64,000 bases of DNA. It comes from Intoshia linei (lineage: Eukaryota > Animalia > Orthonectida). The notes under the pieces are model-generated. The model saw only the letters and a list, made by a program, of their open reading frames with translations. It had not been told where the DNA came from and did not search any database. Shown piece after piece: positions 1,805 to 64,000 of the stretch; position 1 is the stretch's first letter; every line of letters begins with the position of its first letter. The DNA lies in contig LWCA01000011.1 of the NCBI GenBank assembly GCA_001642005.1, forward strand, positions 1 through 64,000, given 5' to 3'. The position numbers and the translations under genes are program-made.

Positions 1805-1878
1805 ATTAAAATCAGTTTATCTCTATAATATAATATGATAAATAATAAATAAACAATATGACTGACTAAATAATTAAA

Positions 1879-19472: not shown

Positions 19473-20054
19473 CAGGGGTCGGCAACCAGTGACCCACAGT
19501 TATTTATTAATTATTTAAATTAAATTTATTAAATTATTTATTAATAAATTTCATGTTTAAACATCTTCTACTATAATTATAATTGACTCATTATTTGATA
19601 ATTGACCCTTTTTTGTAAAAATAAAAAAAAAAAACCTGAATGAATCAATGTATGCAATTTCCACCCATAGCTCTTTATTGGAAATATGTAAACGTTCAAG
19701 GCACATTTTTATTGAAATTTTATGATAATATTTACATTTTTACTTACAGTGCGCGACATAAGTCTTAGGCACCCCGATTGTAATTAATGTAAACACTCCT
19801 GGTTCATGATTTAAAACATTTTCTTATATCATATCTAGTGTATGATCAAGAACAAATATTTAACAACCCTAAAAAAGTAAAAACTATAAAAATTTTTTAA
19901 TAATTAATGAAATATAAATATTTTTAATTAAAATTGCAAAATTCCGAGCGACATAAGNAGAAATATGTGTAAAAAATTGTTATAAAAAATAAAAATTTTT
20001 ATTATAACGCGGGCCGCACATTCATAATTGGGGGCCTTATAATTGACACCCCTG
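19473..20054. mobile_element. hAT MITE containing a nested Tc1-type end
   Basis: TIRs CAGGGGTCGGCAA / TTGACACCCCTG and a GCGGGCCGCA subterminal motif. An N at 19958 lies inside. Confidence 0.6.
19747..19957 (+). mobile_element. Tc1/mariner IR/DR-type terminal inverted repeat (~210 bp), cut at an assembly N
   Basis: TA|CAGTGCGCGACATAAGTCTTAGGCAC start, near-identical to 29085-29305. The inner direct repeat CGACATAAG is interrupted by the N at 19958. Confidence 0.75.
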
Positions 20055-20125
20055 ATATAGATCCCGATTCATAATATTGTTTTACTGCAAAATTGTGGTG
20101 AAAAAAAGTTTATCAAATAATCTAC

Positions 20126-37364: not shown

Positions 37365-37435
37365 GCATTAGTGGTTCAGTGGTAGAATTACTCATTGCCA
37401 TTCAGTAATTCCTGGTTCGATTCCCGGTTAATGCA
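37365..37435 (+). tRNA. tRNA-Gly (GCC), second copy, possibly a pseudogene
   Basis: Paralog of 16485-16555. Has a C:C mismatch in the anticodon stem and a T:C mismatch in the T stem. Oligo-T terminator is retained. Confidence 0.7.
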
Positions 37436-39497: not shown

Positions 39498-40712
39498 ATG
39501 ACGGATAACGGAAGTGAAAATAAAAGTTTTAATATATCGAGTATATTGCAAACTCAATATATGAAGCGTAAATCAACCGAAAATTATCAACTACCACATA
39601 AACATTCTAAATGCGTTAATCCGATACAATCACAGAATGAAACAGTACACGAAACTCGAGGAAAAATTGAAAATTTAACGTTTCATGAGTATCTACAAAA
39701 AATGATGAAAACAGAAAAAAATTTTTATAACCATTCACAATTTGGTCAAATTCCGTATATATCTCCGTTTTATCTTCCAACTAGTGTGATTCAAACTATA
39801 AATTCACAATCATATTTATTGAATAAAAATTTCATTGATTCGTGTACTAATAGTATATTTAATTCCAATTCCCTTAATTTACTTGAACCTTGTGAAATGT
39901 CTCAACTGAACAATTCTCTATCTCTTAGTTCAAACGTTTTATCCCATGAAAAAGTAAAAAAACGAAGACATAGGTATTTACTAAACAATAGTTTGTAAGG
40001 GAATGTAAAATCCTTATACCCTTAACATTTGTCATAACCAAATATTGTACATTTTTTGTAAATAATTAATTTCATAACTTATAAGTATATACTTATATTT
40101 CTATTCCAAACGCATTTTCTTGGGCAACCGCAAAATGAGATTGTTAATTTTGAAAGGATAATCATAATGAAAATAAATAAATTGTAGATCTACATTTTCA
40201 AGTTTCCAGTTGGATGAATTGGAAAAATCGTTCATTTCAGCACATTATCCAGATGTTAGTTCTAGAGAAATTTTGTCAATTAAGACGCAACTTACTGAAG
40301 ATCGTATTCAGGTACGCAATGCAAAAACTACAATACATAAACATTTAGGTTTGGTTTCAAAATAGACGAGCAAAATGGAGAAAAACCGAAAAAACATGGG
40401 GGAAAAGTAGTATAATGGCAGAATATGGTTAAATTTATTTTTTTTATTATAATTATTAAATAGGTCTTTACGGAGCTATGGTACGTCACTCTTTACCACT
40501 TCCAGATACTCTTTTCAAAAATAAAGATACAAGGGACCCCACATCATGGCTTTTGAGTAATTTATTTCAAATTACATTTATGTTTTATAAACAGTATGTA
40601 AAACTATTTTAATTTTTTCAAATTAATTAAAATTAACCAACTGTGAGTATTCAATTATATTTTTGATAACATTTTAGATATGCACGAAAAGTCGGCTAAA
40701 CATCAGCATTAA
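39498..40712 (+). CDS. Vsx: Visual system homeobox (Vsx/Chx10/ceh-10), Q50 paired-like homeodomain with CVC domain
   Basis: eh1/octapeptide SFNISSIL. Homeodomain [30 protein letters not shown]...[21 protein letters not shown] domain [27 protein letters not shown]...WLLNMH. Five exons. Confidence 0.95.
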
Positions 40713-42243: not shown

Positions 42244-42808
42244 CTAGAGTTTTTAAAATATTGCAAAATTTAACTCAATTCTTATCTAAAATATTTATAC
42301 GTGTAATTCAAATACATTGTTGTGTATTGTGCAAAGGATACAGATGATGAAGTTGATTTTTTTCATAAGGTTTCGTAAAATCGAATTTTTCTCTGATGGC
42401 TTGTAATGGTATTTTTGATTAAATTTCATTAATGATATGATAAAAGTGGGATTTTTGAAATAATAATGTATCCGTCGTCTAGGCTTTGGGATAATCCACA
42501 TCTACAAACTCTGTAATAATTATTAAAAATTCTCCTATAAAAATTAACAAAAGTTGATCAAAATTTTTTTATATTTTATTTGAATCTCACGAATCAAGGC
42601 ATATAATTTTGAACCGATTTGAAATTTGACGGATCTGATCGAAATTTAACGGAATGAGATTTTTTTCATTTTTTATTTCAGTTTTATAGTTGTAACTTTA
42701 AGTTAAAATATGTAATATATATTTAATAGTAACTGTTACTAACTTACAACAATGATGAATGAAAGCTACGCATGAGTAAATTAAATCATTAATACGAATT
42801 TAAATTTT

Positions 42809-45800
42809 ATGATGTTAAAGTTGATAATATTGGTTATAAACTGTGTGATTTTGACAAAAAGCGAGTATAGTTACACCAGACAGAATATAGATGACAGAAA
42901 TGTGATAATACCACCTTTAATAGTAAAACAACCACCTAAAATAGTATCTTTCAAAAAATATGAAAGTTTTGAATTGGACTGTGAAGCTGTTGGGACAGCA
43001 CCAATTATTTACAAATGGAATTTTAATGGTAAAATTTTTGATCCAAGCGGCCTTGACGACAGAGTAGTAATTCAACCTGGAATAGGCACTCTGATATTTA
43101 CTCGTCCATTGAAAAGAGATGAAGGTACATACCAATGTTTTGCTTCAAACTCAGCAGGAGTCTCACTTTCGGTAGTTGTAGATTCGCGTTTAGCGATACT
43201 AGAATCATTTATCCAACAAAGCGAAACCATCCACAATGTACGCCTTGGACACCCGCTTAAACTTGATTGTATTCCACCCAAAAGTTTCCCTATAGCTTTT
43301 ATATACTGGGTAAAAGAGTTGCAAGAATCCGGTATCACTATACCTGTAGAAACGTCTGATAGAATATCATTAGACCCTGAAGGCAATTTACATTTTTCTA
43401 ATGCTGTTTCTAAAGATTATAACAATGGAGGTTTTTATTCCTGTGTAGCTCAAAACGATGTTACAAGAACACAACAAGTTGGAAGACGTCATTATATTCA
43501 CCCAAATGGGAAAATTGTAGAGTTAATGAAACCCTTAATTCAATGGCAAATGGCATCGCATCATATTGTTTTATATGGAGAATCAATAAAATTAACCTGT
43601 ATGTTTTCTGGCAGTCCAACACCAACGGTACAATGGTTTTTGAACAAGAAATATGATTTTTTAGAGTCTCCTCGATTTAAAACAGAAAACTATGGAAGGG
43701 AATTAATAATTAGCAATGTTAAATTTGAAGATTCAAATACATACGAATGTGTTGGAACAAATTCGCAAAGTCCAACTGGAATTCACAGATCAGTTAAACT
43801 TAAAGTAGAATCTCAACCTTATTGGCAAGAAAAGGGGAAGCCAGAATCAGTAGAAGTGTCCGAAAGTGATTCAGCAGTGTTTGTGTGTAAGGCACTAGGT
43901 TTACCCAAACCCGTGGTAAATTGGTACATTAATGGAAAAGCCATAGGTGTATTGAAAAACAACGAAAAGAGAATCATTAAGGAAGATGTCATTACGTTTA
44001 AAAATATAAATAAACTAGATGTTGGTGTTATTCAATGCAATGCAACCAATAAACACGGGTATGTCTTTGCCAATGCTTATTTAAATGTTTTGGAAGAAGC
44101 ACCATCTATTTTAGAACACCCAAAGAAACTAACTATAATGAGTGAACAAATGAATGCTCGAATTAACTGTCTCGTTGTTGGTACACCTCAACCTATTGTT
44201 ACGTGGAACAAAGGAGATGAACAATTGACGGGTGGTCGATTTTTAATAGACTTGAAAGGTCATTTAAGCATATCAAAAGTTTTTTTTGTGGATTCTGGGT
44301 TGTACACTTGTAATGCATACAATAAATTTGGTAATACTTCATCTTCCGGTAGACTAGAAGTGATCAGACGTACTCATATCATAACGAAACCTAGAGATAT
44401 TGTTATTATTCGAGGATCCGAAGCTAAATTTACATGTACTGCAACAACCGATTTAAATAGAATTTCAAATTTGAAGATTGATTGGATGAAGGACGGCGAA
44501 TTGTTTGATTATAAAGATTTTGATAGAGTATATAAAAACGAACAAGACAATTCATTGACCATATCCGGTACCATTATTCATGATACCGGAAGGTACAGTT
44601 GTTATGCTTCTAATGGTATTGATTCTGATGTAGCTGACGCTAACCTTATAGTTCAAGCTAGACCCGAACCACCGATAAAAGTGAGAAGTGAGTGTTTTGA
44701 AACCCATAATCAAGCGAAGGTGAGATGGTCCGCTGGACGAGTCAATTACTCTCCTATAATAAATTTTATTGTTGAATATAATACGTCTTTCACGCCAGAT
44801 AGGTGGATTACTGCAAAAAGATATGTACCCAGTAGCATTCGTCAAATTCTCGTTAATTTATCTCCATGGAACAATTATACCTTTAGAGTAATGGCTCAGA
44901 ATAAAATAGGCGTTAGCTTACCTAGTCGTGCTTCTCCAAAAACCTGCAGAACAAATATAGGAAGACCAAAGCGAAATCCGAAAAATGTTATTGTTCAAGG
45001 CGATCTACCAGATAATCTTGTTATCTATTGGACGGTATAATCAGATTTTTTAATTTTTATAATTATTATGATATAAGGATTTTAATATTATAGACCAGGG
45101 GTGGGGAGGTAGTGATTGTGATTTTCCAAGAAATGACAAAAGTCGAGAACTGGGAAATTAAAAATTAAATTTCCAGGGTCCCGGGAATTTTCCGGAAAAA
45201 ATCAAAAATTTTGATTCATATATAATATAGAAGCATTAAAAATTTTAGAGACCCTGATTAATTTTAAAAACAAAAAGAAATTTAACGAATTTATATTGAA
45301 ATTTAATAATTTAATTAGAAAAAAATTTATTTATTTTAGATTTTTTGAAAAAGTGTTTCAAAACACACATAATATTGATAGATTCGTCTTTTAAACGCGT
45401 TCTACGTTTTGTAATGAAATTAGAAGCAGTATAGAAAATTCTTTCATTTTGTGTTGACGTAGGTTGAACGGTCATAAGGGTTTCCTTTAATTTTAATAAT
45501 CTTGATGATAGTGTTCCAGTTCGTAAAAACTCATAATATATTAATCAAAATAATATAATAATAATTGGAAAAAGAGGATAATTCCCTTAAGCGTTAGTAA
45601 TTTGTGGTTGGAATAAGAGGTTTTTAAAAAAAGTATTGGAAAAAGGATATTTTTCCATTAAGGGCTGGAAAATTAAATTTTTTGGTTTGATAAAGTGGAT
45701 TTTTTTCATAAGATTTTGTAAAATCGTATTTTTGAAAAGAATATCGGTGTAAGTCAACTTTTTCATGGGGGCTTGAAATAGTAGTTTTGATTAAATTTTA

Positions 45801-48018
45801 TTAGTGGTGGAATTTTTGAAATGGTAAATTCTAAATATTATAATATAATTATATTTTTATAGTAATAACAAAAATAAATCAAATACAGGTATGTTTCAAT
45901 TTTTTTGGGGAAATCCTGGGAAATCGTAAAAATCCCGGAAATTTTTTATCGGCACAATCACTATGGGAGGCGATATAAAAAAATATGTAGAGGAGTCGGC
46001 AACCTTTTGCATTTCGTGGATCACTTTTTTTATACCAAAACATTCTACGGGCCCGGTTTTGAAAATTTACATATGATATATTTCAATTTTAACTGAAGTG
46101 AAACTGTTTTAATATATTCTCAAAAATAAAATCCAGGTCGATCTGAAAATTCAGTATTAAAATGATTATAATGATCCAATTATAGTAGAGGATGTTTAAA
46201 ACATGAAATTTAAAAATAAATAATTTAAATATTTACTCAAATAGCCACCAAAATTATTTTGTGAGCCACTGTTGTTGAGCCTGATATAGTTTAATATATG
46301 TATATTATATTTTACACATCTTCAGTACATAAAGTCGATTATTCGTACATTAAATAACATTGTATTTTTAGCCAATGCTGCAATCTGAACACGGGGGAAG
46401 TAAATTTCGATATTTATTGAAATGGAAAAAAGCTAATACAACTGACCAAGTTATTCCAAAAATGTGGAACACTTATGAGATAATGAATTGGACATATAAC
46501 CATTACACAATAAAAGAAGTATTTAAAACATATAAACCATACGTTGTTCAAGTAATAGCAAAAAATGAATTTGGAATTGCGGAAGAAGACGCCAAAATTA
46601 TAAGAGGTTACTCGGGAGAAGGAAAACCCAAAGTTTCCGTATCCAATTTGAATTACAACAAAACTACTCTAAGTGCCAATTCGGTGAATCTACTGTGGAA
46701 TGATCCGATTATAAACGATGAAACAATTAGAGGTTATTTTAGAGGATATCTTATTCAATATTGGACCGAAAATATGCATAAAGATATTGTTCAGGAAGTT
46801 GAATATATAATAAACGAAGATATATACGCTCCTAGAATTCGACTTCCAAGACAAGTTTCTCTATTATACAATCGCACTGGTGAAACTCGAAAATTTTATC
46901 TGTCCGGCTTGCCGTCATTTACAAAGATTTATGTACACATTCGTATAATGAACAAATTTTATGTAGGTCCAGCAAGTAATTTGCTGTCGATTCACACACG
47001 CGAAGGAGGTAATGAGAATTTAAAAATTTACATAAAAGTTTAGTGCCAAACCGTGTATCTTCTTTTGTTTACAATAAACGAGGACCTACGTTTATCCAAG
47101 TATCTTGGATTATATCTGACAATACTCTCGATCAAACTATCGTTGGCTTCAAAATCTCATTTCAAATAGGTTGATTTGATTCGATTTAATTTTAAAAATA
47201 AACGTTTAGTTTCTAAAGAAAAAATTGAACAAAAAATTTTCGTTTCGAATAATCTACCGGCTGATGCAAATACATTTAGAATACATGGATTAATCCCAGA
47301 AAAAAAATATAGAATAACAATTTTCGCTTTTAACATTCTTGGAATGGGTAAAGGAGCATATATAGAAGCATCTACCACTCCTGCCACAATACCAGACCCA
47401 CCCGTTTTTACAATCGAAGAAATTCGATCAACTTCTGTCTCATTTTTATATGAATCCGATCAATACAGCGAAAACCCAGGAAGTGTTTTTTATGTTCAGT
47501 ATAAAAGATTGGGTAAAAATTAAGTGACATTTTATACATATTTTTAGGTGAATATAGTTGGAAAAAAACGTTTGAGCAATCTGATTCGATAGGTACTATC
47601 AGAATCATTACACTGGATGTTAATACACCGTATGAATTTCGATTTGTCAGCAGAAATTCTATGGATTTCGTTGGCTTTTCGGAGATTATTGCTATTCAAA
47701 CCAATGATCATGAAGGATTTTTCTATCCAATTTTCTATCGCACTGTATGGTTTTGGATGTCAATTATTATTATCTTCGTTTTGATTTTTATAGCGTCATT
47801 CGTCATATACTACTTTAAAATACGCCACATACGTTGGTACACAACTAGTAATTTTAACCCGTTCATTTTCAAACTTATTTAGAAGATACATTGGCTGATA
47901 AAGTCAGGAAAATGGAAGCTCAAGAAGCAGTAAAACGAATGGGGTTTGCGGGAACCTCTCAATCGTAACTTGCTAAAAATATGAAATTAATACATTTAAA
48001 TTTAGAGTAAATATGTAA
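42809..48018 (+). CDS. L1CAM/neuroglian-family cell adhesion molecule (6 Ig, 5 FN3, TM, short tail)
   Basis: Signal peptide, six Ig domains with C..W..D.G.Y.C motifs (including DPEGNLHFSN), FN3 repeats (LSPWNNYTFRVMAQNKIG, GYSGEG, GYFRGY) and TM VWFWMSIIIIFVLIFIASFVIYYF. Stop at 47968, or at 48018 if intron 47965-48005 is used. Confidence 0.9.
45110..45963 (-). mobile_element. hAT element with dimerisation-domain remnant, in the neuroglian intron
   Basis: TIRs TAGTGATTGTG / CACAATCACTA with flanks TGGGGAGG / TGGGAGG. Minus strand ~45340-45535 encodes LMTVQPTSTQNERIFYTASNFITKRRTRLKDESINIMCVLKHFF. Confidence 0.85.
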
Positions 48019-48901: not shown

Positions 48902-51857
48902 ATGCAAGATATATTGTACTGCTATAATTATGGTTGTAATAAAAAATACAAGGCAGATGACACTGGTTTACCTGTTTTATCATAAATATTAATTATATCA
49001 TTAGATACGTGTTTTTATCATAAATCTCCTCCAACATTTCATGATGCTTTAAAAATATGGCCCTGCTGTTCCAAAAAAAGTGTTGGATTTGACGAATTTC
49101 TAGCGATACCTGTATAATACTGATTTATATGATAGAATATTGATTAGGGTTGCATTTCTGGTAATCACAGTAATATTCGTCCCTTTACAGAAAATAAAAG
49201 CAAATCAATTAAAACTGAGGTATTATTTATTAGAAAAAATACGTCGGTTTTACCCACAATGTGATACATTGGTAATATTAGAAGTATGCTAAATTTCGAT
49301 ATCAAAATGAAATCACCGGCGGTTTGAATTTAATTGTTAATTCGCAAAATGAAAGACACCCAAAGTTATTACACATCTCTAAAATTGTGGGAATTTTTAT
49401 TTTTATTTACACATAATATTATTATTATTTTTTTGTTAATACATAATTAAACGAAATATTTATAAAACATGAAATTAATCGAAAATTGTGGGGCATATAA
49501 TATTATAGATATTATTTCAATGAGGATTTAAATATTCAACACAATTTCAACTTCAATTTTTTAATTTTGTATGGTAAACCCCTAAAAATTTTTCTAAAAT
49601 TGTGTAAGAAACTATAGTTAATTTAAACCAGATACTCCTATTTTTTGAAACGTATACATCCCTTTTCGCGAACCACCATTTAGGAAATTCTGATATAGAC
49701 CACCAGTTGGGTCGGTTGTTTACATGTATTTAATTTATATTCTTTAATTATGATCTAATTTACTCAATATCTTAAATGGATTTTATTTATATTGATTAGA
49801 TTGAAAAGGAACTTGATGTTGTGCATGAACCAGTAACTCAAATTGATAGACCCGATATCAATGAAGTATTATCATGTCTGAAATTTGAAGAATCAGAAGA
49901 ACTGATAAAAAAAGCTGGTACAAATCGAAAAGAATGTTCAAATGATTTAGAAAGTATTTTATTGATATATTTAGAATTCATTTATTTAGATAAGGATATT
50001 TCATGTTGTAATAATTCGTGTTCAATGGTATTTTTAAAATAAAATGTATATAAATATAATAACATGGACGGTCAAAGTGCAGGCCCAAGTTATTTTATTA
50101 CTATTCAAACAGACAAGCAAAAAAATTAAAAATATCAATATGGATTTATTTCTCATGACTCCCTATAACCGTTGAGAAAAATTTGATATTACGTTTAAAT
50201 TTAAAATTTTTGTATCGGTATTGATTCTTCATGATCACTGTGTATGTCGGGTCACCAAAGTTTTTTCGTCGTAGATTTCATTTTAAATCAAACGACCCCT
50301 TAAAAACTTTTAATACATTAATTCAAAATGGAATTAACATTACTCTTCATTAGTGCAAACTTTTTTGGCGCCACCCTTTCGAGTAAAAAAATTGCCCTAC
50401 CCTTAAGAAAATATTCTACAAAAAAACTCTTTTATAAATGTTTAAAGATACTCTTATCTGTAAAATTTGTTTAAATATAAAATAAAATATATAACAAATT
50501 TCAAAATAACACATACCCTATGGGTTCGGCCTATGAAGGTTAACACTTCATTAAACATTACAGTCACTTTATTTTAAAACTTATAATAATATTAATATAT
50601 TCAGCGCCTCTCAATTTAAAAAAATTTATTTATTTAGATACGAGCAAATTAGTTAATTAATCTTTTATTTTAATGATACAATCTTCATAATTACAATTTT
50701 TTTTTAAATTTTACATTTCATATACATGAACCAAAGTCGTATTTAAAACTAATTTATATAAAAAGTAGGGATTTTTATTACATCAACATTTGTTTCTGTT
50801 TATAAATCAAACGTCAATTTCTGAGATTGAAATTAAGATTTTTGGAATCAGCGTAAAATATGTTTTGTATATGGATTTTACAAAACATTTTATTCAGATG
50901 GCAAAGAATAAAAATAAATAAATTCGTACCTGGATCCACTAATCGAAAAATTTCCAGGATCCAAGGGTTCCATATTGACCCTTTGCGAACCTAATTTTTT
51001 TTGTAATGATTAATATATCGTCAAATTTAAAACTAAAAATGGTCATGAATCATGATTCATTCTAAACGTGATCTTTTGGATTTTATAACACTTATAACAC
51101 CATGTCTATATTTTTAGAATAAAATTTAATTATAAGTTAGAGAAAATCAAAATTAAACGATGATTCACTAATTTGCGTATATCATCCTGGCCATCAAGTA
51201 TTTCACGAAGGGTAACTTGAAATGTAACTATCTAATACTTATAGATTGAAATTCTGGTCTTGCTGTGAAAAAAAAACTACAAAATTTGATATTTTTATTC
51301 ACCAAAAAGGTTGCTTTGAAGGCGAACATAATTGGGAGGTTGTATTTTCAATTTTTCAGGTAAAATTTTTACTTTAGAAAAAATTAATCCAAAAAGAATG
51401 CAAAATGGATTGGTCAAACTCAACTAAAGACGTTGTTATAGCTTTATATTCTAAAATGCCAGTTGTTCCATTATGTACTATTAAAGGTGAACATAATTAA
51501 TTATTTACTTGACTCTTTAAAAGTATATTCCAGGTAGTAACAAGATTTTAGTAATTATCAAACCTGATATATTGAGGGAACAATGTTTTTATAGCCCTTG
51601 GAATATACAATTTGATATTTTTTAATTCTACATTTTAGCCAACAGAATAAAAATATGCATCGATTTAGTGTATGAAAATGGCAAATCAATTTTAAAAAAA
51701 GAATTAGAATTATACGAGGTTGATGGATTTATCTAATTATATAATAATTCAGAGCATCGACCCGATCCTTTCGTATGTGCGTTACAGTCATATGAAAACA
51801 GAAATAATACTGTGTAAGGAAATACCAAAGCCATGGGACAAATTAACAGTATCATAA
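48902..51857 (+). CDS. CHORDC1: CHORD domain-containing protein (Morgana/CHP-1)
   Basis: CHORD-I CYNYGCNKKY..C.YH..P.FHDALK.WPCC....FDEFLAIPGC..G.H. CHORD-II CCNNSC..CVYHPG..VFHEGLKFWSCC.KKT..FD.F..QKGC..GEHNW. CS domain CKMDWS...KTEIILCK..PW. Confidence 0.92.
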
Positions 51858-51888
51858 TAAAAATTTATTTTAAAATACATTTTATCAA

Positions 51889-52659
51889 TTAATTTTGTTT
51901 CAATTGGTCAAGACGGTTTTGTAAATCGTCCGTATCATTAGTAATTATAGAATCATTCACACATGGTCGTTGGTGTATCTCTAATCTACAATTAATTTAT
52001 ATCGATATGTTGAACCTGATAGTTTTTCATTTATTTCTGCTGATATTTCCCCAATAATTGCTTCCGTTACGTCATCACTAATAGAATAAGGTAAATTAGA
52101 AATAAACGTCAAACCCTTCTTCCTCAACTCCTTCGTCAAATGCTATTTCCATGGCATCATCTAGAGTTTCAGATTTGGCGTCCGTAATTTCGTTCTCACG
52201 TTGAAAATTATACATGATGCTTTGTAATTCGGGTAAATTTACCTATATAGTTAATATCTGAAAAATTTGACAAACTTGTTTATTGATGGATTTCAACGCA
52301 GAACTGGTACTTTTGAGAGCATGTGTTAATTCTGTTATTGACATGACGGTGCTGAGCTTAACACTCACAGCTTGGATATGTGATTCAAGTATGGCTGTTT
52401 TGGTAATATTACGACGTGTTTGAGCTAATTGTTTAGCCAAGGTTCTGGCTGCAGTCTATTAAATGTATGCATTTAGTTTATAAATGTATACGGGTTTATC
52501 ATCCTGTAACATTTTTTTAATTTTGGGTTTTAAAGAATTTTCAATTCTGACAAGGCGAGTATTTAATTGGCCGACTTGTCTTAATGTTTTCTTAATTAAG
52601 CGATCGTTTTTTCTAATTTTTTCCCTTGGAGTTTCCCTGCCAAATAGTGATTTTAACAT
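51889..52659 (-). CDS. CHMP2: ESCRT-III Snf7-family subunit CHMP2/Vps2
   Basis: MLKSLFGRETPREKIRKNDR, ARTLAKQLAQTR, IQAVSVKL, INKQVNLPELQSIMYNFQRENE and the C-terminal MIM1 DDLQNRLDQLK. Confidence 0.88.
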
Positions 52660-52735
52660 TGCTGTAAATGAATTTAATTCGTTATAGAGATAAATGCTAG
52701 GGAATTGAATACAATTTCACATATTGTTTATTTGA

Positions 52736-55702
52736 TTAATACAAATGTTTGTCTATATAAATTTGTAATTGCTCTAATTTTTTGTCAATTTCGTTAATGT
52801 TGTAATCCTTAATTGTGTCTAAAGGAAATATTTAAAAGTTTAATTTCAAAAATACCTGATTTGTAGATATCAACCGATGAATCAGATTCGATGTAATAAT
52901 TTTGCCTGGATTTTATATTGGGTTTATTTTTTTTTAATACTGATTTTGATTTTGATTTTGATTGGTACTTGCTTTTATTGTTACTGGAAATATTAAAATT
53001 TGAATCTGAATCGCTAGTGTTAAGTCTTTCGTCTAATTTTTCATGTTTAAATTAAAAATTTTGTACCTGATCTGTATTGAAACTGACCACTTCCGAAAAT
53101 TGGCTTTTTTGTTCTAAATTTTTTTTATAAATACAGGTATATTCTTATATTTTTAAATTTACCTCGTCTTGCATTGGTTTATGTATTGTTTTTTCTTTAC
53201 ATATTCTGTTGGATTAAATCTTTTAAATCCACCTATATGGCATTATAATATAAATGCAAATATTATTACTTGATGCACTATGAGATCTTTTAATTTGAGT
53301 ATTATTATCGTTGCACATGATCCTGTAATTGGCAGAATTTGACCTTACTTGCCTTTTTTGTGGTTCAGTCATATATCTACTTTTAATGTGGCCATATTGG
53401 TTTGATTTGTAGTAATGGTTCTTGTTAGAGTTACTACAATTATTAAAATGTGAATTCCGTTTACTCGGTTTGAGATTTGAGGAACAGCTATCTGAAGAAA
53501 ATCTATCTTGAAAATTCTTTTTATAATTTGAATTTTGTGATGAATTTAATCGATAAACGGATAATTGAGTTGATAGCTGTTTTACCCGTGCAATTAATCG
53601 TTTCTCTTCCTTTTTCATCGTATTTATCTAAAAATGGTATATTTCCCTTTAAAAATGTAAACAGTTTCCTGAAGTCGCCGATTTTCATATTCTGTATCGG
53701 AAATATGTTGTCGAAATTCTCTTCTTTCTTTCTTCATGTGACTTTTTAATTGAGAGACAATGGATTGCAGCGATTTTTCCGTGTTGTTTCCTGTTTGGTT
53801 TATATTTTCACAATACGGAATTGATTCAGAAATGGTAACAACGTCTGTAACAAGAGGTAATGGTAATGGATATTGCACCGTATCGAATCGAGAAGTGTAC
53901 GTCAAAACCAAATACCGTTTATTGTGAATATCTCGGACAAATTTGCAATCTTGTCGATTAGTTTTCATTCTCTGAATTTTTTCCAAGTCTTCATATGTCA
54001 AAATGGTTAATGAAATTTCTGGACATTGTTCAGTCTGAAATTTACAAAAATAATTATAAAATAATTGACAAAAACTGCATCACCCAATCAAAGCAATAGG
54101 CCCTATAAAATTTTTTAAGAAAATGTGACCTCTATACATTGGTTAATCGATCTTTCATTATTTAAAAATTAAAAATAACTAATTGGACTGTTTAAATTAA
54201 TAGAACATTTTATTATACGATAATTTTGGTATAATTAAGAAATTTTCCAATATTACCTATTAATAAATTAAAAAACTAGACCTCATGATTGTAGGCCGTG
54301 TCATATAGATACTATGTCACCTCTCCTGGACCCACACACATTTTGTGTCATCTGTCCCCAGTGGTTCTTAAAAAATTTTTTTTTAACGCACCCTTATGGA
54401 TTATAAAAATGAAACGTATCAAAATTTTAATACCTCATTTCGTATCCGAGAGCTACTTTGCACCGAAGAAATTTTTGGAAAATGGGGTATTTTTTCCAAA
54501 TTGAGCATTAAAAAAATGAAGCGTCCTGAATAACAACTATTTTATGGTCAAATTTAACCTGTATATTCCAAACCCACTATTAAGCGCTATATGGCACTAC
54601 GAATCATTAGTTAAATTTTTTTAGGAGCTTATTTTTGATATTGTGGTTTGTAGCATGGTTGATTCATCTGTCTCATTAGAACACCATTTTCGCATTTCTA
54701 ATTTAAAAGGGTATGTTTTGTAGAAAAATTAAAGTTATGGATGAACATATAATTACTTAAGTCTTGGAACATTTCATTATAAAAAAATTCATAACACATA
54801 TCACATCATAAATGTAAAAATTTCAAATACAGCCCAAAAAATCGTCATAGTCCACTTTCTAATTTACATTATCAAAATAGTAAATATGTAAGAAATTTTT
54901 CATTACATATTCATTCAGAATGACCCTAGTCCAGAGGTGGGGAAGCATTTACTGTTAACGAAGGCCATATTAACGTCCATAAAATTTTAATAAGGCCCCA
55001 CGTTTCTAAATAAAATTCAATCAAATACAGCAGTGCTTCTCATGGAGGTGACTGGTCACCCAAGGGGTGAATGATACATTTATAGCATATTTTATTCAAT
55101 TTAGTAAAATCTTATGAGAAAACACCATAATTTTACCAACCTTAAGGAAAAAATCCTTTTTACCAATATTTTGTGAAAAATCTCGTTTTACCAAAAATTA
55201 AAATTTTAAAAATAATAAAATAATTCAAATTGTTAAAAATTTATCTTATTGTTAAAATGAAATTTTTCAATAAATAAAGATAATTTATGACATGTCGAAA
55301 ATATTACAATATTTTTGAAATATTAAATGTGAAAAAAGATGAATTAATTTTAATAATAAATCATATTTTAATAATTTTAATTACGGATAGATTTATATAT
55401 ATTTTGTATTTACCTGATACAATCGAATCATATCACAAAATATATTAAACGATTTATAACTTCCACTTTTTTTAGACATTTTTTCAATATCTATAAAAAT
55501 ATTAGTATAATTAATTCTACTTAATGGAAATATTACATTTATTATTGAATGTATCAGCCCAACATAGTTTTGTTTCTACATTTTTAAGGAAAATATTGAT
55601 ATTTTTCAAATTTGCTTCAAAATCTTCTAAACGAATTATCAAAGAATAAGGTCCAACTTTGGTATTTAATAATAAGTTTTTATTGATATCCTGACGCACC
55701 AT
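52736..55702 (-). CDS. CCDC61: CCDC61/VFL3 centriolar SAS6-paralog
   Basis: W.DTF...YIEKMSKKSGSYKSFNIFCDM, LTYEDLE and NKRYLVLTYTSRFDTVQYPLPL, then coiled coils and C-terminal EIDKKLEQLQIYI. Confidence 0.88.
55031..55210 (+). mobile_element. hAT-like MITE end (same family as 62690-62940)
   Basis: Starts CAGTGCTTCTCATGG. Homologous to the reverse complement of 62690-62940. Confidence 0.5.
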
Positions 55703-56263
55703 TTTATTTTTAAATATATAAAATTCCAATTGTTTATTCTTACGTTTCTATGATGTAAATTTACCACTATAAACATTGCTGGTTGTATAAATGTAACGCG
55801 TTGAGTTTATCCGTTGATATGTTCAAACTAATTTTAGAATTTATTATTATGAACATTGTTTCATTAAATTATTATTAAATTGTTAATTAATTTAACTTGC
55901 TAAATTATTAAATTAAAATAATTTACTATTATAATTAATAGAAACACTCAGAATCAAACCATCGCGTTGATTCATACGTGTGAAAAGACCAACTTTTCAA
56001 TAATAATGTGAATAATAATATAATGTGAGAAAGTGCAAACAATTGGAGCATGTCTCAAGATAGGTTGTGAATTGTGACTCTGCGTGCAATCTTTACCATG
56101 CTTTTAGAAATATTTATGAGATCAATAAAAATTAATTTCAATGATATGGGAAACACCATGGCAAGTCTGTTATACAATATATTGACCTAAAAGTTGGTTT
56201 AAACTCTGAAAATATTAAAAAGTATCTGTTGGTGAAGTTTCACACTGAATTTAAAACCTCGGT

Positions 56264-59257
56264 ATGGATAATACTGAGTCTGCTGACAATGACAAGTTAA
56301 AAAGTGTCATGTTAACAGATGATATTGCTAGAGCGGCCCAAAAGGTTCGTCGACGTCCATATAGTCAATTTTACACATTTAAATACCCCAAGAAAATTTA
56401 CAATAAGGTCGATAACGTCAAGAATATCAAATCGTTTCAAATTAAACACGAAAAAATAGAAACGAAAGAAATAAAAGCTGGACCATGTCTAATTGATAAA
56501 CCTAATAAAACCAAAAGTAAATCAGTTTTAGAAATTTATCCTGAAAAAATCGAAATTCCAATAAGCCGATACAAATCCATGAATTATGACGATACTGTTG
56601 CTTATCCATTTACTAGCATCGAAGAAATAAAACTAAATTTCCCACGTAGACAGACAGAAAATGAAAAATTTTTGAATCATCTCAAAATTGGCGCACAACC
56701 TCAACCCTTATACAATTCTAACAATGACAAACAATGTGAAACACCTGTCAACGTACCATCCTCGTCGTCTAATGAAGATAGTATTTATGAAAATTACAAC
56801 GACATAAAAGAAAGATTAAACATAATCTACGCGGAACATTTAAACTCGAAATTTGATAAAATTGACAATGCACCAATACCTCTACCTAGAAAAAAACGCC
56901 AAAAGGGTACTTAAATACAACAATATCAAAATGTATATAATTTTTTGATTTTTATAGAAAGTGAAAATATTGTGGAAATTAATGAAACCATCTCATCCTT
57001 TGATTTTCTTGAAGACATGAATAATACCGATGACGAAATTGAACCTATTGATCGAAAAAGTTTATTATATTGATATATTTTTTAAAACTAATAAAATCTA
57101 AATAATAGATGTATCGAACAATCCTACAATAAATAATATAGGAGACAAAATTGACCAGGAATTTGAAAATGCTCTGAATCGCGATTTCGATATACAAGAT
57201 ACATGCAGTTCCGAATCTTCAAATACTCAAAGTACTCAACACGCTACCGATATTGTTATTTCTAAACCAACAGTCAGCTCCATGATATCATTTGTTCAGC
57301 AGGTACTCAATTCAACCAAAATTTCCAGTTTACATAATTTTATAGGCGAATGGAAAAGTTTGGCAGGGGTACGCCCTTATTTCAACAAAGAAAAAATTAC
57401 GATCCAGGTTCCTACGTTGTTGGTTACATTTTGATTCAAAAACCTTTTCTGTATCATACCGAACCTCTAATGTAATCAATTTTTATCTTTATACCACGAT
57501 TATTAGATTACTAGAAAAATTTTAATTTACGCATCAGAGATGAAAAACGTTGTACAAGATATTTCTGTAATTGTTTTGATTTATAATCTGTCAATTTTGT
57601 AGAATCAATTTAGTAGCAAATTTTATTGCTTTGATTTAATAACCACCAACAAAAACTACAGATTTGGTACATTTTCTATAGGTATATTATTTTTTATTTC
57701 ATTCATTATAATGCATACAATTATTTGTCTAAAAGTATCTATTTAAAGAAATAATTGAGCTTATTATCGTATTTATATTATTTTATTACTCATAAAATAA
57801 AAAAAATGGTTTATTACCTAGAAATTTAATGTTTTCGTATTCTAACTTATATAATATGCTACGCGATTTTTGTTTGTGTGTACCACTTTATTGAAATAAC
57901 TACCAGTCTTAGAATTTTTTAAAGACCACATTTTAATTACAGTTTTTTCCGGGACGTATAATAAGATAAATTTCAACCTCCCAATTTCACATCTTACGGG
58001 TCAAAAACTCCAATTATCCCTCTTTTTGAAAATCAAACGAGTTGGACAATTTAAAAAAATGTATACGCTGATACGGATTTTAAAATCATAAACATTATTA
58101 TAAATTTAAATTTAAAAACATTATATCTTCATGGCCAAAACCCCAAATTACTCTTCTTTTTTTAATGAAAACAGCCCTAGAATTTCAAAAAATTTCAATC
58201 CGAATAAGTGACAACTTCACGGTCAAAAAAGCATTTTAGTATTCATATTTTTTTTTCGAAATATTTTATTAAAATAAAAAATGTGAAATAATTAACGGTC
58301 CGAAAATTTAAAAAAAAAGAAGATTATTCTGATAGAGCTTATTCCAGTTGATATAAATACAAAATTTCAACCCCAGAAATCTACGCATTCCCGATGAAAA
58401 ATAATTTTTAATATATTATCAACCAATATTTTTCAAATATTTCGATGAACAAATAAATAAATGTAAAATAAATGTAAAAATGTTCATATCTCAAGACGTT
58501 CATCTTTGGAGAATTGACTGTATTTATAAATAGTTTTTTAGATTTGACAAGCCTTGTATTTCATATGCATAAACCATATACCCATGAAACGTTGTTCTGA
58601 TTTTATTTAGATGCCGAAAAATTAAAATAAATTCTGTCGTGGATCCCAATAATTTAAAAATTTGATCGTTTGATTTTCTATTATAATATTATTATTAATG
58701 ATAAACAACTATAAAAAATTATTTCGAAAAGTGACTGAAAAAAATGCAATCAATGTCTTAATCCTTAATATTGATAATTTGTAGTATTTTCTCCGGTGCA
58801 TATATTTTTTAATAAGTAAAAAATAAATGCTGGTTTAAAAGAGTTATTTATTTCTAAATTTTTGGTTAAGTTTTAATTATATAAAAATATTAACAATTAA
58901 TATACCGGCAATTTATAATTCAGGGAATTTGGAACTTGCATTTTCATATTAATTAGCAATTAACATCTATATTTACGATTAATCAACAATATATTAAGGT
59001 TTAAGAATGACACTGAATTCTGATATTTATCCGTATACAAATTGTCTGAAATTTTCAAATTCTAAAGAATTCTAAATTACCGGGCATATATAATATTTAT
59101 ACAATAAAATCACGTTTGGAAACTAATACATTATTGTATTATACATTTCCACTTTGTGTTTGTAAAATATGTCAAATATATTAAATTATTTATAGATGAC
59201 ATGACAATTTGGAGTAGTGTTTTGATGGAAGCGATACTAGCGGAAAAAGGTGGCTAA
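56264..59257 (+). CDS. Adaptor-like protein with disordered N-terminus and C-terminal PH domain
   Basis: Spliced exons give KVWQGYALISTKKKLR....RCLVTFD....S, FYCFDLITTNKNYRFGT and DMTIWSSVLMEAI, matching PH strands 1-7 and the Trp helix. Upstream motifs DSIYENY and PIPLPRKK. Confidence 0.7.
57841..58480 (+). mobile_element. Helitron family, 5' half, in the last intron of the PH gene
   Basis: TCTAACTTATATAATAT start. Closely similar to the reverse complement of 33460-34110. Confidence 0.8.
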
Positions 59258-60071
59258 AATGTATATTTGAAGCATGTAATAAATTTTAAAATTTACCAGT
59301 TTACTAAATGCGTTAGACTACGATCGATTAAAAAAACAAAAAGTTGTAGTTTTTGAAATTGTATATGTTTAAATGCTAAGTCGTCAAGTTGGATAAATAT
59401 ATTAATGTGATAGATTGACAGTGAGATGTATATTTCTACAAGAAAGGCAAACAGTAATCCCTTAGTCTGTGCTAGCAATGAACGTCATAAATGATAGTTT
59501 CGTATTATTAATAGTAGAAATCGGATCTAAATGGGGATTCGATTTTGCATAATAATAATTTTAATAATAATTTGCATAAGATTTTGATATAAATTAATTG
59601 CTGTATTGGAATCTTATCAAATGTATTTAATTTTGACAGGGAGCATTAAATTTGTAATTTACAACTTTTACTATTGCAGCAAACTTTCTTACTGCTTTAG
59701 GGTTTACAATAAAATATTGGAAGCGTGATAATTTGTAACAATCTCATTTTAGAAAATGTCAATACTCCAACGTGTAATTATATCATTTCATTATTTCATT
59801 AAAAGTTTTAGAGAATAAGTTTAAACCTTTAAGCACTTTATCAAAATAAATCCATCCCATAATTGATTTTTGCATTAACACTTGTTGCACGCCAAAAAGT
59901 TTTCTTATGATTGTACCGTTTGAGATGAATACAGGGATATAAATCTGAATATTTTTAACGATTCAAACTATTATCGACAACTGCATTTTAATTGATAGAT
60001 TTTTGACCCACAATTGCAGTTGTCTAATCATTTAAATATTCCATTTACAAATTAATCTCGATTGAAATGGA

Positions 60072-63000
60072 ATGACTATTTGCATTTTTTTATTTTACGT
60101 ATTTGTACAAATCGTATTAGGGGTGCCTTTACCTGAAAGATATAATCATCCATGGGATCATTTTACAGGAAATATTCCTTTTGCGTCACAGAAAATTGTA
60201 TACGAAAGTGGTTTTTATGTTTTTATTTTGCGTATACATAATTTAGCAAATGCTACTGTTTGCCAATGGGAAACTGTGGTCATTCATTGTGAAACTTATA
60301 AATCTGTCATCATTATCAAAAGTGCAATTTATGGTAGAATGCACACTCTTTATAAGAAATGTATCCAAAACTCGTATGGCTTTCAGGGTTGTTATAAAGA
60401 TGTTTCAAGTTATATATACTCAAAATGCTTCGCTCAAAAGAGGTGCACAATCACGCTTCCAGATTTTCATTTGGATAAAATGGGATCTTGTCCAGACGAT
60501 TTAAAATCCTTTTTAATTATACAATACGTCTGTCTAAAAAGTAAATCTTTCAATTAAAATTGACATGTACAATTTATTTATTTCTTAGTTGAAAACCATC
60601 AAAAAGTCAACATACAATTCAAGCACGTTCATTTGAACAAAAAGGGTTTTGTTGTCAGCAAAAAACAGCAACAAATATTTTTAATTGGATATATGGATCA
60701 ATTCAAAAGTGAAATGTATCTAAATCTCAAAATTTCGATTTATTCTCCACATGGAAATGATTATAAACTTTCCAAATATATACGACTTGTTAAAAACAAA
60801 ACTGCACTATGCCATTCTGCTGGTTACATTATTCCCGATTTTAACAATGACAGTATATTTATCATTCAATATATAGTTTATTCTTTTTAAAAAATTCAAA
60901 ATTTACCACACAAGTTCAAAGTTAATACATTTATTAGTATTCAATCTTTTTAAGGTAAAATTACAGTAATACAATATTTTTCATTTTTAGCAAAAATTGT
61001 GAATATAGCCTGATTATAAATTTGTAAAATTAAAATTGATTAACTATATTTTTATTGTCAAACATAATTCAATTTTTATGTCCAATGCTTAAATAAACAT
61101 TTAATTGGGTTAAGATAAACATAAAACTTGCTTTATAATTTGGTACACAATTCTGAGGAAAAAATGAAAGTGTCGAAACTGATTTGTAATCAATTGACTT
61201 ATCCTATAAACTTGAAAAAATTGATTTTATAATCCTTATATTTATATACTACTTTGTATTCTCTATTATTTTAAGTACATCTTGAGACGTCATGAATTAA
61301 GATAAGTTTAGGATTCGTTTATAATAATTAATAATAATTTATCAACGAATTACTAATATATATATATATTATTTCATTATGTTTATTATTAGTCATAGTA
61401 ATTTTGACTATATCAAATTCAAATATGACCATATTAAATGCAAACATGACTATATCAAATACAAACATGACTATATAAATAGAGAATATCTATATCTTAA
61501 TTTTTTTGATTGATTGACATTAAATCGAGTCCACATTGTATTATTTGTAAAAAATCAATTATTATTAATATAATCACGTTTTAATGAAGCATTTTATTAC
61601 ATTTATATTCCTAAATCGATGATTTTTCAACCTCTTATACCATCGTTATTTACTACCTTTATGGAAGTAGATAGAAAATAATGAAGTAATCGTCTAATTC
61701 ATGATTAAGCATGTAATATAATTATTGTACCATCTAACTTAATATTCGAAACGTTTGAATCAATTTATAAATTTCTGTGGATCACCATAAATCAACATTT
61801 CTCATAAGCCGTTTTTTATGTACATTTTTGTATTAACATTTTTAAGTAAATTTTTGAGTTATTATTGCAACATTTAATTTAAATTTTAAATAAATGAACC
61901 GACATTGAGTACTAAAAACTGGACAGATGCGTATCAATGGGTTCAAAAACAAAAGACTATTATTATGTCACATGATCAGTATTATGTACCAACTGGAAAT
62001 GATGTTAACTTGACCGAAGACTAAGTGAGTCAATATGTGGATTCAATAAATCAAAGCAGTTTTGAAAATTTTTTTAATATAAGAAAATGTTTAAATTCTG
62101 TTTGGAAAATATCGCTTGATCGTGAAAATTGAAAATCTAGAGTCGAAAGTTATCCCATTGAATGTCAAAAGAAAGAGGGGACGACCAGCTCAGGCAATCA
62201 AGTTTTGCTGAGGCAGTGTTAAATTAACGGTTAATTCAATAAATTAAAAATTAGTTAATTAAAAGTCTATTCACCCCAATAAAACAATTATTATGACATG
62301 TCATAATTGTGTAGAAATACACAATTTGCACTTATAAAATGTACTGAATTTGAGTACAAATAACGTCTTCACGTCATCACATCTTTTAAATTTTTATTGT
62401 TGGCTTTATGAATCATATATAATACATGGTGTTTGAAATATACAACAAAAATGTATGTGAAATTTAATCAAATACAAATATACAAATGTATGTACATATA
62501 AAAATTTAATGTGAAAAGTGACATTAGTTTAATTCAATGATTTTGTGGAAGTTAATAGATAAGTTGGTAACCTTTAAACGTAAATCGCCACGTTTTTCAA
62601 TATTGAAACATGTTCTATGTTTGCCGAAAAAATATGGCTAAATCCTTTTGGAATCAGATAGTGATTTCCTATATAAAATTTTGATAAAATTAAATTTTTC
62701 AAAAAAATATTGGTAAAAGATGATTATTTCTTTAATGGTTGGTAAAATTGGGTTTTTTCTTTTGGGATTTGATAGAGGCATTTTTTATCTAAAAGTTTGG
62801 TAAAATTTTGGTTTTTTCACATATTTAACTAAATTGAATAAAATATGTTAAAAATTTATTATTCACCGTTATTCACCCCAATCATCTAAAATTTTAGTAT
62901 TTACCCCCTCATAAAAATATTTACCCCATGAGAAGCACTGATTTAGACGCTAATATTATAAATTATAATGACATAAACTATAAACGCTGTAACTATTAAA

Positions 63001-64000
63001 TTATATGTTACAATAATAACTCAAATTTGTTTAAATTAAAAAAATAATGTTGATCTCTGGATATTTTACTGTAGTAGTGTTCGATAAAAAATTAATTTTA
63101 TCTGGCATAGGCCCTATCGTACGTGTAAAAATACGGTTGCTTTGAATGGAAATATTATAGACATTAATTTTAATTTGTTTACATAAAAATATAAATTATA
63201 ATTCCATTTGAACTCGTCGTTTAATTATAGTCAATTATCCCTTTTAAGAAGTATGTTCTATAGTGCTTTTTTCTCTAGGTTCACTTAACCTTTAATGTAT
63301 CCGTTAGGCAACAATGGTACAATAAAAAAAAATTCCATTTTTAAAATTTTAAACAAAAAAGTTTAAAATATACGTTAATACAATTAATAATTATAATTTC
63401 ATCAGAATATTGTTTAACTTATACCAATAATAAAACAAATCATTATGAATTATCCATCAAAAGAGGAAAAATGTATATTAATGGAAGAAACGATCCAATT
63501 TTAATCAAATATGAATACGAATATGGTAAATGATAAAAAACATACACTAAACTCAACATAGCTAAATGTGAAATGCCAAAACTGCCACCAAAATCGTGGC
63601 ACGCCCAGGAAGGTAACATTTTCACAGTTGGGTGTATTTGGGATAAGAAAAATAAATGGCGCTATGATTGCATATCAAAGACATGGGAAAACAACAACAA
63701 CCTTCCAATACCCCAAAAATGCTACATTGAAGGTAAAAACTATGCAACACAATAAAAAAGTATTTAGAATCAGTTATTATTGGGAATGAATCAATGAGTT
63801 AATATTGTATATTTAACAATTCAATATAATTTAGCTTATATAGCAATGTCAGTTTTATTTTTGTCAATATTTGCCTCTTTTATAATATTAACATGTATCA
63901 TCTTATACATAAAAAAGTAATGATAGTCGAAAATGTTAACTTTTAATTTTATTTAGAAAAAAATGTGTAGAAAATGATATATTTCAAGTTCGAACAAGTT
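60072..64000 (+). CDS. Type I membrane protein with SUEL (rhamnose-binding lectin) domain, CUB-like region, Cys/Trp module and TM; continues past the window
   Basis: Signal peptide, then SUEL C..E...I.C.....I.I.SAIYGR......C.......C......Y..C..QKRC.I........CP..LKSFL.IQY.C. Exons at 63406-63918 encode KCEMPKLPPKSW....N...VGC......W.Y.C...W followed by TM YIAMSVLFLSIFASFIILTCIILYI. The join between the two blocks is inferred. Confidence 0.7.
61406..61480. repeat. 21-bp tandem repeat TGACTATATCAAATACAAACA, about 3.5 copies
   Basis: Seen directly. An inverted TAGTCA copy lies at ~61390. Confidence 0.75.
61860..62222 (+). mobile_element. Mutator-like (MULE) transposase C-terminal remnant
   Basis: EPTLSTKNWTDAYQWVQ....YYVP and IPLNVKRKRGRPAQA, with in-frame stops and deletions. 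Confidence 0.65.

What the first reader, a model, noticed from the sequence alone, without database searches (positions are those of the whole stretch)
52655..52740. Operon-like CCDC61-to-CHMP2 junction: 76 nt, poly(A) signal, then a splice acceptor 2 nt before the ATG
Seen: on the minus strand the spacer reads TAA-tcaAATAAAcaatatgtgaaattgtattcaattccctagcatttatctctataacgaattaaattcaTTTACAG|caATG. Only 76 nt separate the CCDC61 stop from the CHMP2 start, leaving essentially no room for a promoter after the upstream cleavage site. Known: AAUAAA, a short pyrimidine-rich spacer and an acceptor just before the downstream ATG is the layout of SL-trans-spliced operons in nematodes, tunicates and flatworms. 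Inference: this is a polycistronic unit resolved by spliced-leader trans-splicing. The alternative is a 51- or 59-nt cis 5'UTR intron (from GTATTC or GTGAAA) with the CHMP2 promoter inside the last CCDC61 exon.
Basis: partly seen in the sequence, partly recalled or inferred. Interest (0 to 1): 0.8.

Follow-up and report, generated by a model that had tools for sequence, protein, structure and literature searches.

The report
Tight gene pair, operon unproven
In a tiny parasitic worm (an orthonectid), two unrelated genes lie head to tail only 76 bases apart; this is likely ordinary tight gene packing with a separate start for the second gene, but an operon cut apart by a spliced leader cannot be excluded because the available RNA data miss the junction.

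Summary
The layout is real. CCDC61 stops at 52736, AATAAA follows 3 nt later, and AG lies 2 nt before the CHMP2 ATG (52659), 76 nt on. A public Intoshia linei protein maps onto these exons. Homologues show both genes end and start at their natural termini, so the public model that fuses them is likely an artefact. The operon reading is not shown. The acceptor is weak: ACAG occurs in 0 of 53 cis acceptors of the window, and 17% of background AGs score as well. The spacer is only 53% pyrimidine. Spliced RNA contigs (3 runs, 1 study) do not cover 52613-52753 and show no leader, bridge or joint there. Tight packing is the local habit: tail-to-tail gaps of 31 and 74 nt, and poly(A) signals close to stops. 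Best reading: two separately started genes (0.52); SL operon 0.2. No paper found reports trans-splicing in orthonectids. The scan noted similar layouts in other genomes, not at this locus.

The parts
52736..55702 (-). CCDC61 coding region, 8 exons (55702-55537, 55490-55414, 54034-53663, 53627-53270, 53232-53163, 53113-53067, 53032-52856, 52818-52736)
   Evidence: P0001 maps onto the exons; open frame to a natural stop; introns 53628-53662 and 52819-52855 seen in RNA contigs; homologues named CCDC61
55828..55926 (-). 99-nt GT..AG cis intron in the CCDC61 5' UTR; the exon upstream of it lies towards the head-to-head gene
   Evidence: Inferred from piece lengths of contig X1 record 4 (table 8): 368 nt between pieces = 77 + 291, which lands exactly on the AG. 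The joint itself was not listed.
52736..52738 (-). CCDC61 stop codon TAA
   Evidence: Sequence; 17 of 21 homologues end 16-21 residues after the start of the conserved IDxRL-type motif, as this frame does
52727..52732 (-). AATAAA, likely poly(A) signal of CCDC61
   Evidence: Sequence; 2.4% by chance within 12 nt; cleavage site not observed
52660..52735 (-). 76-nt spacer between the two coding regions
   Evidence: not covered by any RNA contig
52707..52720 (-). Two GT dinucleotides (52720, 52712) that could open a 59- or 51-nt cis intron; both weak
   Evidence: Donor scores above 0 of 53 and 4 of 53 true donors
52697..52742 (-). 46-nt GT..AG stretch that the public model removes to fuse CCDC61 with CHMP2; likely not a real intron
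   Evidence: donor above 1 of 53 and acceptor above 0 of 53 true sites
52662..52663 (-). AG of the proposed acceptor (context ACAG), 2 nt before the ATG; its G is also position -3 of the start context
   Evidence: 3.6 bits, above 4 of 53 true acceptors
51889..52659 (-). CHMP2 (Snf7 family) coding region, 5 exons, 209 aa
   Evidence: all 4 introns seen in RNA contigs; Pfam Snf7; Met lines up with homologue starts
48902..51857 (+). CHORD-domain gene, tail to tail with CHMP2, 31 nt between stops
   Evidence: 9 RNA joints, model, Pfam CHORD, gap
56264..56906 (+). First coding exon of an unnamed gene head to head with CCDC61 (561 nt between start codons)
   Evidence: no Pfam family

Best explanation
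CCDC61 and CHMP2 are two intact genes lying 76 nt apart on one strand, and each is likely transcribed from its own start. CCDC61 likely ends just after its stop codon at the AATAAA. CHMP2 likely starts in or just above the spacer with a short unspliced 5' UTR, its promoter overlapping CCDC61's last exons and introns. The AG before the ATG would then be incidental (its G is the -3 purine of the start context) or at most a minor splice site. Shown: the layout, the natural termini, the weak acceptor score and the tight packing of neighbours. Inferred: the separate promoter, the cleavage site and the absence of a leader.
For: Natural termini: 17 of 21 CCDC61-half homologues end as this frame does, and 92 of 129 Snf7 hits start within -6..+8 residues of Met 52659. 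Acceptor atypical: of 53 cis acceptors, 51 end in TAG, 2 in TCAG and 0 in ACAG; among the 18 seen directly in RNA, 17 TAG and 1 TCAG. The candidate outscores 4 of 53 and is matched by 17% of 3467 background AGs. It lacks the YTAAY motif found before 12 of 29 true acceptors (background 22%). Local packing is tight: tail-to-tail gaps of 31 and 74 nt. AATAAA lies within 45 nt of the stop in 5 of 9 genes, CCDC61 included (the SAC-gene row was dropped because its stop was mis-set). One contig joins CCDC61's 5' end to its head-to-head neighbour through a cis-spliced UTR intron, so regulatory DNA here can sit on or against a neighbour's transcribed DNA. The neighbour's contigs in X2 and X3 begin on genomic letters 95-97 nt before its ATG with no extra letters. 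PMC7854359 (passages) reports no leaders or operons in a compact annelid genome, 'similar to other annelids', and PMC12249979 (abstract) places orthonectids among annelids.
Against: No transcription start for CHMP2 was seen, and no promoter motif shared with 9 other starts stood out. The 76-nt gap is far shorter than the other same-strand gaps measured (933 and 2096 nt). The other 9 starts have no AG within 18 nt, and 8 of 9 have none within 22 nt against 47% expected (about 0.01 by my arithmetic), so this AG is the exception and may be under selection. Several of those 9 starts are first-ATG guesses. A trans acceptor need not match the cis consensus. The weaker YTAA motif is present (20 of 29 true acceptors, background 46%). 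In a species that has leaders, short gaps mostly are operons (1,470 of 2,151 candidates in a chaetognath, PMC12460157 passages).
Confidence: 0.52

Rival explanations
1. SL-resolved operon: one precursor from the CCDC61 promoter is cleaved and polyadenylated after the AATAAA, and a spliced leader is trans-spliced to the AG at 52662 to cap CHMP2.
For: The order stop - AATAAA - AG - ATG is as in known operons, and the gap is in their range (about 100 bp median in C. elegans, 31-57 bp in Oikopleura; PMC7986045 passages). It is the only one of 10 starts with an AG close to the ATG. Operon genes are often annotated as one fused model (PMC7986045, PMC12582326 passages), and this pair is.
Against: Weak, atypical acceptor. 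The other 9 starts show no acceptor near the ATG, and CCDC61's own UTR acceptor appears cis-spliced. The public annotation also fuses an LRR/EF-hand gene to a SAC-domain gene across 1.9 kb of this window, and my own gene finder made both fusions from sequence alone, so the fused model carries little weight. No report of leaders in orthonectids in 9 searches, though the library lacks most subscription papers.
Confidence: 0.2
2. CHMP2 has its own promoter inside CCDC61's last exon, and a short cis intron (51 or 59 nt) in its 5' UTR ends at the AG at 52662.
For: CCDC61 appears to have such a UTR intron. Lengths of 46-60 nt occur in 7 of 53 window introns, and PMC6543705 (passage) gives a 57-bp median for I. 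linei. It would explain why this start alone has an AG.
Against: Both donors are poor (above 4 of 53 and 0 of 53 true donors), and so is the acceptor; 26 of 53 introns are 33-40 nt and no GT lies at that distance.
Confidence: 0.12
3. CHMP2 borrows the CCDC61 promoter without any leader: either CCDC61's non-coding first exon (donor 55926) splices straight to the AG at 52662, or read-through gives a two-gene mRNA translated by re-initiation.
For: A non-coding first exon with a good donor is inferred, and it needs no promoter in the spacer.
Against: Contig X1 record 4 runs unbroken from that exon into the next CCDC61 exon, where a second major splice route would be expected to break it (inference about assembly). 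The acceptor is weak for a 3.3-kb jump over seven strong ones, and the AATAAA would stop read-through.
Confidence: 0.1
4. The two genes make one 669-aa CCDC61-CHMP2 fusion protein through a 46-nt intron (52742-52697), as in the public model OAF71983.1.
For: The model exists and keeps the frame.
Against: 0 of 150 retrieved proteins match both halves, and both termini are the conserved ones. The donor and acceptor score above 1 of 53 and 0 of 53 true sites. The cluster has a single member, and a second chimeric public model lies in the same window.
Confidence: 0.05

Closest known systems
SL2-type operons of Caenorhabditis elegans (median about 100 bp between genes; PMC7986045 passages)
   Same: Same-strand unrelated genes, poly(A) signal after the first, AG just before the second ATG, gap under 100 nt.
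   Different: No leader shown; the acceptor is weak for this genome; the other 9 starts in the window have no acceptor near the ATG.
Oikopleura dioica and Ciona intestinalis operons (31-57 bp or no spacer; PMC7986045 passages)
   Same: Very short gap in a compact animal genome.
   Different: Those species have a known leader RNA; none was found reported for orthonectids.
Flatworm and chaetognath operons (gaps up to 300 bp or under 250 bp as candidates; PMC12582326, PMC12460157 passages)
   Same: The gap passes both candidate thresholds, and a chimeric gene model covers the pair, as often in flatworms.
   Different: Those papers detect leader-bearing reads, which were not obtainable here.
Compact annelid genome of Dimorphilus gyrociliatus, without operons or trans-splicing (PMC7854359 passages)
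   Same: Related lineage, short intergenic DNA, promoter-proximal regulation; the model for the best explanation.
   Different: Slow-evolving and free-living; the passages read give no figure for gaps as short as 76 nt.

Membership tests
SL-resolved eukaryotic operon | Adjacent same-strand genes with a short gap | tested here: met
   76 nt between coding regions
SL-resolved eukaryotic operon | Upstream gene ends by polyadenylation within the gap | tested here: inconclusive
   AATAAA 3 nt after the stop; contigs end 16-61 nt before the stop, no tail seen
SL-resolved eukaryotic operon | Functional splice acceptor before the downstream ATG without a cis donor | tested here: inconclusive
   AG present but scores above only 4 of 53 true acceptors; two weak GTs in the gap
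SL-resolved eukaryotic operon | Non-genomic leader on the downstream mRNA | tested here: inconclusive
   Contigs of X1-X3 start 47-91 nt inside the CHMP2 coding region, no loose ends
SL-resolved eukaryotic operon | SL RNA gene (leader, donor, Sm site) in the genome | not testable with these tools
   No genome held; in the window Rfam finds only two tRNAs and a recalled donor-plus-Sm pattern has 0 matches
SL-resolved eukaryotic operon | One precursor from one promoter; no own promoter for the downstream gene | not testable with these tools
   No contig bridges the gap; contigs cannot show starts
CCDC61 family (upstream gene) | Conserved N-terminal head and C-terminal IDxRL-type motif close to the end | tested here: met
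   21 proteins hit this half only, two of them named CCDC61 by their sources; terminal motif in 17 of 21
CHMP2 / Snf7 family (downstream gene) | Snf7 domain starting a few residues from a free N-terminus | tested here: met
   Pfam Snf7 E 6e-24; 92 of 129 hits start within -6..+8 of this Met. No tree was built to tell CHMP2A from other Snf7 subfamilies; the name rests on source labels.
CCDC61-CHMP2 fusion protein | Fused form conserved in relatives or spliced junction in RNA | tested here: not met
   0 of 150 proteins match both halves; RNA does not cover the junction; no close orthonectid relative was among the hits

The most novel reading that the evidence does not exclude
Orthonectids, highly reduced parasites derived from annelids, have evolved spliced-leader trans-splicing on their own and use it to resolve operons, and CCDC61-CHMP2 is one such operon hidden under a fused public gene model.
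Probability: 0.2. Interest if true: 0.75.

Novelty: new member of a known kind. Interest (0 to 1): 0.3.

Why it matters
As most likely read, this is a tightly packed gene pair and a correction of a public gene model: OAF71983.1 likely merges CCDC61 and CHMP2, so both would be miscounted in gene-content studies of this much-used reduced genome. If a leader is found, it would be an independent origin of SL trans-splicing and operons in an annelid-derived lineage, where the paper read reports none. That would bear on whether trans-splicing follows genome reduction. The locus gives a cheap, exact test: one position (52661) in raw RNA reads.

Tried and rejected
No whole genome is held, so genome-wide gap and acceptor statistics could not be run. 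The run search listed 3 runs of 1 study, none on record as RNA; they proved to be spliced. The junction 52613-52753 has no cover in any of the three. This blank is not used as evidence: the same X2 and X3 contigs also stop 39-41 nt inside the CHORD gene, which has no acceptor near its ATG, so 5' ends are lost regardless. Depth differences between CCDC61 and CHMP2 contigs were not used, because the CHMP2 contig is merged with CHORD and contig depth cannot rank genes. The X2 contig starts right after an AG at 52613; as an acceptor it scores -5.7 bits, lies inside the conserved N-terminus, and X1 and X3 start elsewhere, so it was rejected. Rfam found only two tRNAs in the window and one chance-level hit near the genes (E 0.16). 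A recalled SL-RNA-like pattern had 0 matches in the window, which says nothing about the genome. K-mer and CpG comparison of 9 upstream regions gave no promoter motif that would survive multiple testing. The spacer folds weakly (-5.7 kcal/mol, no shuffle control). No related locus in metagenome contigs. No earlier scan note on this genome or protein. The first gene-finder run was trained with two mis-framed genes and is used only to show how easily the fusion arises (corrected). The last exon of the LRR/EF-hand gene could not be placed, so its gap to the SAC gene is unmeasured and left out of the same-strand gaps. Two journal papers on Intoshia genomes, asked for by recalled DOI, are not held; they and their supplements may discuss trans-splicing. 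PMC7738191 (passages) added nothing. No supplements were read.

Full report
Observation. On the minus strand CCDC61 stops at TAA 52738-52736. AATAAA lies at 52732-52727, GT dinucleotides at 52720 and 52712, AG at 52663-52662 and the CHMP2 ATG at 52659; the spacer is 76 nt. The spacer is not notably pyrimidine-rich (40 of 76; 18 of the 30 nt before the AG).

Organism and genes. The window is A+T-rich with tiny introns. A CCDC61 exon finds one public protein, P0001, named 'CHMP2a [Intoshia linei]', 669 aa, whose blocks map onto these exons. The window is thus I. linei or nearly identical to it, an orthonectid. P0001 joins CCDC61 and CHMP2 through a 46-nt GT..AG stretch (52742-52697) that skips the stop codon. 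Homologues argue for two proteins. Of 150 proteins (149, 1), 21 match only the first half, 129 only the second and 0 both. Of the 21, 17 end 16-21 residues after the start of a conserved IDxRL-type motif, as the window's frame does; two of them are named CCDC61 by their sources. Of the 129, 92 start within -6..+8 residues of Met 52659. Those 150 are the best of 2126 hits, not all of them.

Is the fused model evidence for a shared transcript? Operon genes are often annotated as fused models (PMC7986045 and PMC12582326, passages). But the only other public model I retrieved from this window, P0155, also joins two same-strand neighbours, an LRR/EF-hand gene and a SAC-domain gene, across 1.9 kb. 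My own gene finder made the same two fusions from sequence alone (a mis-trained run). The fusion therefore weighs little.

RNA. Three runs of one study hold the region and are spliced. All four CHMP2 introns and two CCDC61 introns are seen. At the junction the CHMP2 contigs begin at 52611, 52612 and 52568 and the CCDC61 contigs end at 52754, 52778 and 52799, with no loose end, joint or bridge in the spacer. The blank is uninformative, since the same X2 and X3 contigs also stop 39-41 nt inside the CHORD gene. Two side results bear on the question. First, X1 record 4 joins CCDC61 to its head-to-head neighbour; the 368 nt between listed pieces equal exon 2 (77 nt) plus 291 nt, which lands exactly on the AG of a 99-nt GT..AG intron at 55926-55828. 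CCDC61 therefore appears to have a cis-spliced 5' UTR, with its 5' end reaching the neighbour's 5' region; this is inferred from lengths, and X1 also holds unspliced contigs. Second, the neighbour's contigs in X2 and X3 start on genomic letters 95-97 nt before its ATG, a weak hint against a universal leader.

Splice-site test. I collected 53 cis introns in the window: 18 seen directly in RNA, 11 from my gene models, P0001 or contig arithmetic, and 24 from the P0155 model after dropping its chimeric joint. Of their acceptors 51 end in TAG, 2 in TCAG and none in ACAG. The proposed acceptor scores 3.6 bits (median of true sites 7.0), above 4 of 53 left-out true sites, and 17% of 3467 background AGs score as well; that background still holds some unannotated true sites. 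The local donors score above 4 of 53 (52712) and 0 of 53 (52720). The fusion model's donor and acceptor score above 1 and 0 of 53. The YTAAY motif, present before 12 of 29 true acceptors against 22% of background, is absent, while the looser YTAA is present. A random non-coding position has an AG within 10 nt in 31% of cases, a YAG in 17% and an AG as good as this one in 6%.

Context. Tail-to-tail gaps are 31 nt (CHORD/CHMP2) and 74 nt; the other measured same-strand gaps are 933 and 2096 nt. AATAAA lies within 45 nt of the stop in 5 of 9 genes, overlapping the stop in CHORD (the SAC-gene row was dropped because its stop was mis-set). A poly(A) signal right after the stop is thus the local habit. 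Against my reading, none of 9 other starts has an AG within 18 nt, and 8 of 9 have none within 22 nt against 47% expected. This says the window's other genes are not trans-spliced near their ATG, but it also makes the CHMP2 AG an exception. Some of the 9 starts are first-ATG guesses.

Mechanism. Most likely (0.52) CCDC61 is cleaved shortly after its AATAAA (inferred from the usual signal-to-site distance, my knowledge), and CHMP2 is transcribed from its own start in or just above the spacer, with promoter elements on CCDC61's last exons and an unspliced short UTR. The G of the AG doubles as the -3 purine of the start context (established knowledge). Rivals: SL-resolved operon 0.2, local cis UTR intron 0.12, use of the CCDC61 promoter without a leader 0.1, fusion protein 0.05.

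Literature. Known operon gaps are about 100 bp in C. elegans and 31-57 bp in Oikopleura, with none in most Ciona operons (PMC7986045, passages). Candidate thresholds are 300 bp in flatworms (PMC12582326, passages and whole Introduction) and 250 bp in a chaetognath, where 1,470 of 2,151 candidates had a leader (PMC12460157, passages). A compact annelid genome has neither leaders nor operons, 'similar to other annelids' (PMC7854359, passages). Orthonectids branch among annelids (PMC12249979, abstract and one passage). PMC6543705 (passages) gives a median I. linei intron of 57 bp and has no occurrence of 'operon' or 'leader'. Nine searches (listings only except the papers named) found no report of trans-splicing or operons in orthonectids. 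Two journal genome papers were not held and could say otherwise.

Earlier scan notes describe similar layouts in other genomes, one with a leader seen in RNA; they were not tested here and are not support. Nothing was noted on this genome or protein.

Verdict. Observation confirmed; operon interpretation open and the less likely reading; the public fused model is likely wrong. Interest 0.3; 0.75 if a leader at 52661 is found.

Noticed in passing
window 51889-55702 (-); protein P0001: The public model OAF71983.1 'CHMP2a' (669 aa) fuses CCDC61 and CHMP2; likely a chimeric annotation that hides a stand-alone CCDC61 gene.
   Followed up: yes
window 13103-27895 (-); protein P0155: A second public model (1041 aa) joins an LRR/EF-hand gene to a SAC-domain phosphatase gene across 20125-18224 and skips several SAC-gene exons visible in the window; the last exon of the LRR gene could not be placed.
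   Followed up: partly
window 55537-56264: CCDC61 and an unnamed + strand gene are head to head (561 nt between ATGs); one contig joins them, and a 99-nt cis intron (55926-55828) is inferred in the CCDC61 5' UTR. Likely a bidirectional promoter with close or overlapping starts.
   Followed up: partly
window 51857-51889: The CHORD gene and CHMP2 end tail to tail with 31 nt between stops; each AATAAA lies in or at the gap and the RNA contigs merge, so the 3' ends likely overlap.
   Followed up: partly
window 1804-1879: A predicted coiled-coil gene and an adenylate/UMP-CMP kinase-family gene end tail to tail with 74 nt between predicted stops.
   Followed up: no
window 18466-18244 (-): The apparent first exon of the SAC-domain gene (ATG 18466) is followed by a GT whose matching acceptor has no AG; either a non-canonical intron or an assembly error.
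   Followed up: no
window, 53 introns: Acceptors are almost all TAG (51 of 53), donors are degenerate beyond GT, and 26 of 53 introns are 33-40 nt long.
   Followed up: yes
window 42600-42690 (+): A strong pyrimidine tract ending in AG lies about 120-130 nt before the start of the L1/neuroglian-like Ig-FN3 gene (ATG 42809); it could be a UTR intron acceptor or an outron and is worth checking for a leader.
   Followed up: no
window 57300-58600, 45300-46300, 61000-63100: Repeats with many divergent transcribed copies laid on them.
   Followed up: no
window 9212-11686 (+), 39498-40712 (+), 34443-35734 (-), 60066-60557 (+), 16485-16555, 37365-37435: A forkhead gene, a homeobox gene, an MFS transporter, a SUEL-lectin-domain gene and two tRNA genes.
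   Followed up: no
proteins P0003 and P0067: Two other database proteins carry a Snf7 domain behind an unrelated enzyme-like region, possibly chimeric models of the same kind.
   Followed up: no
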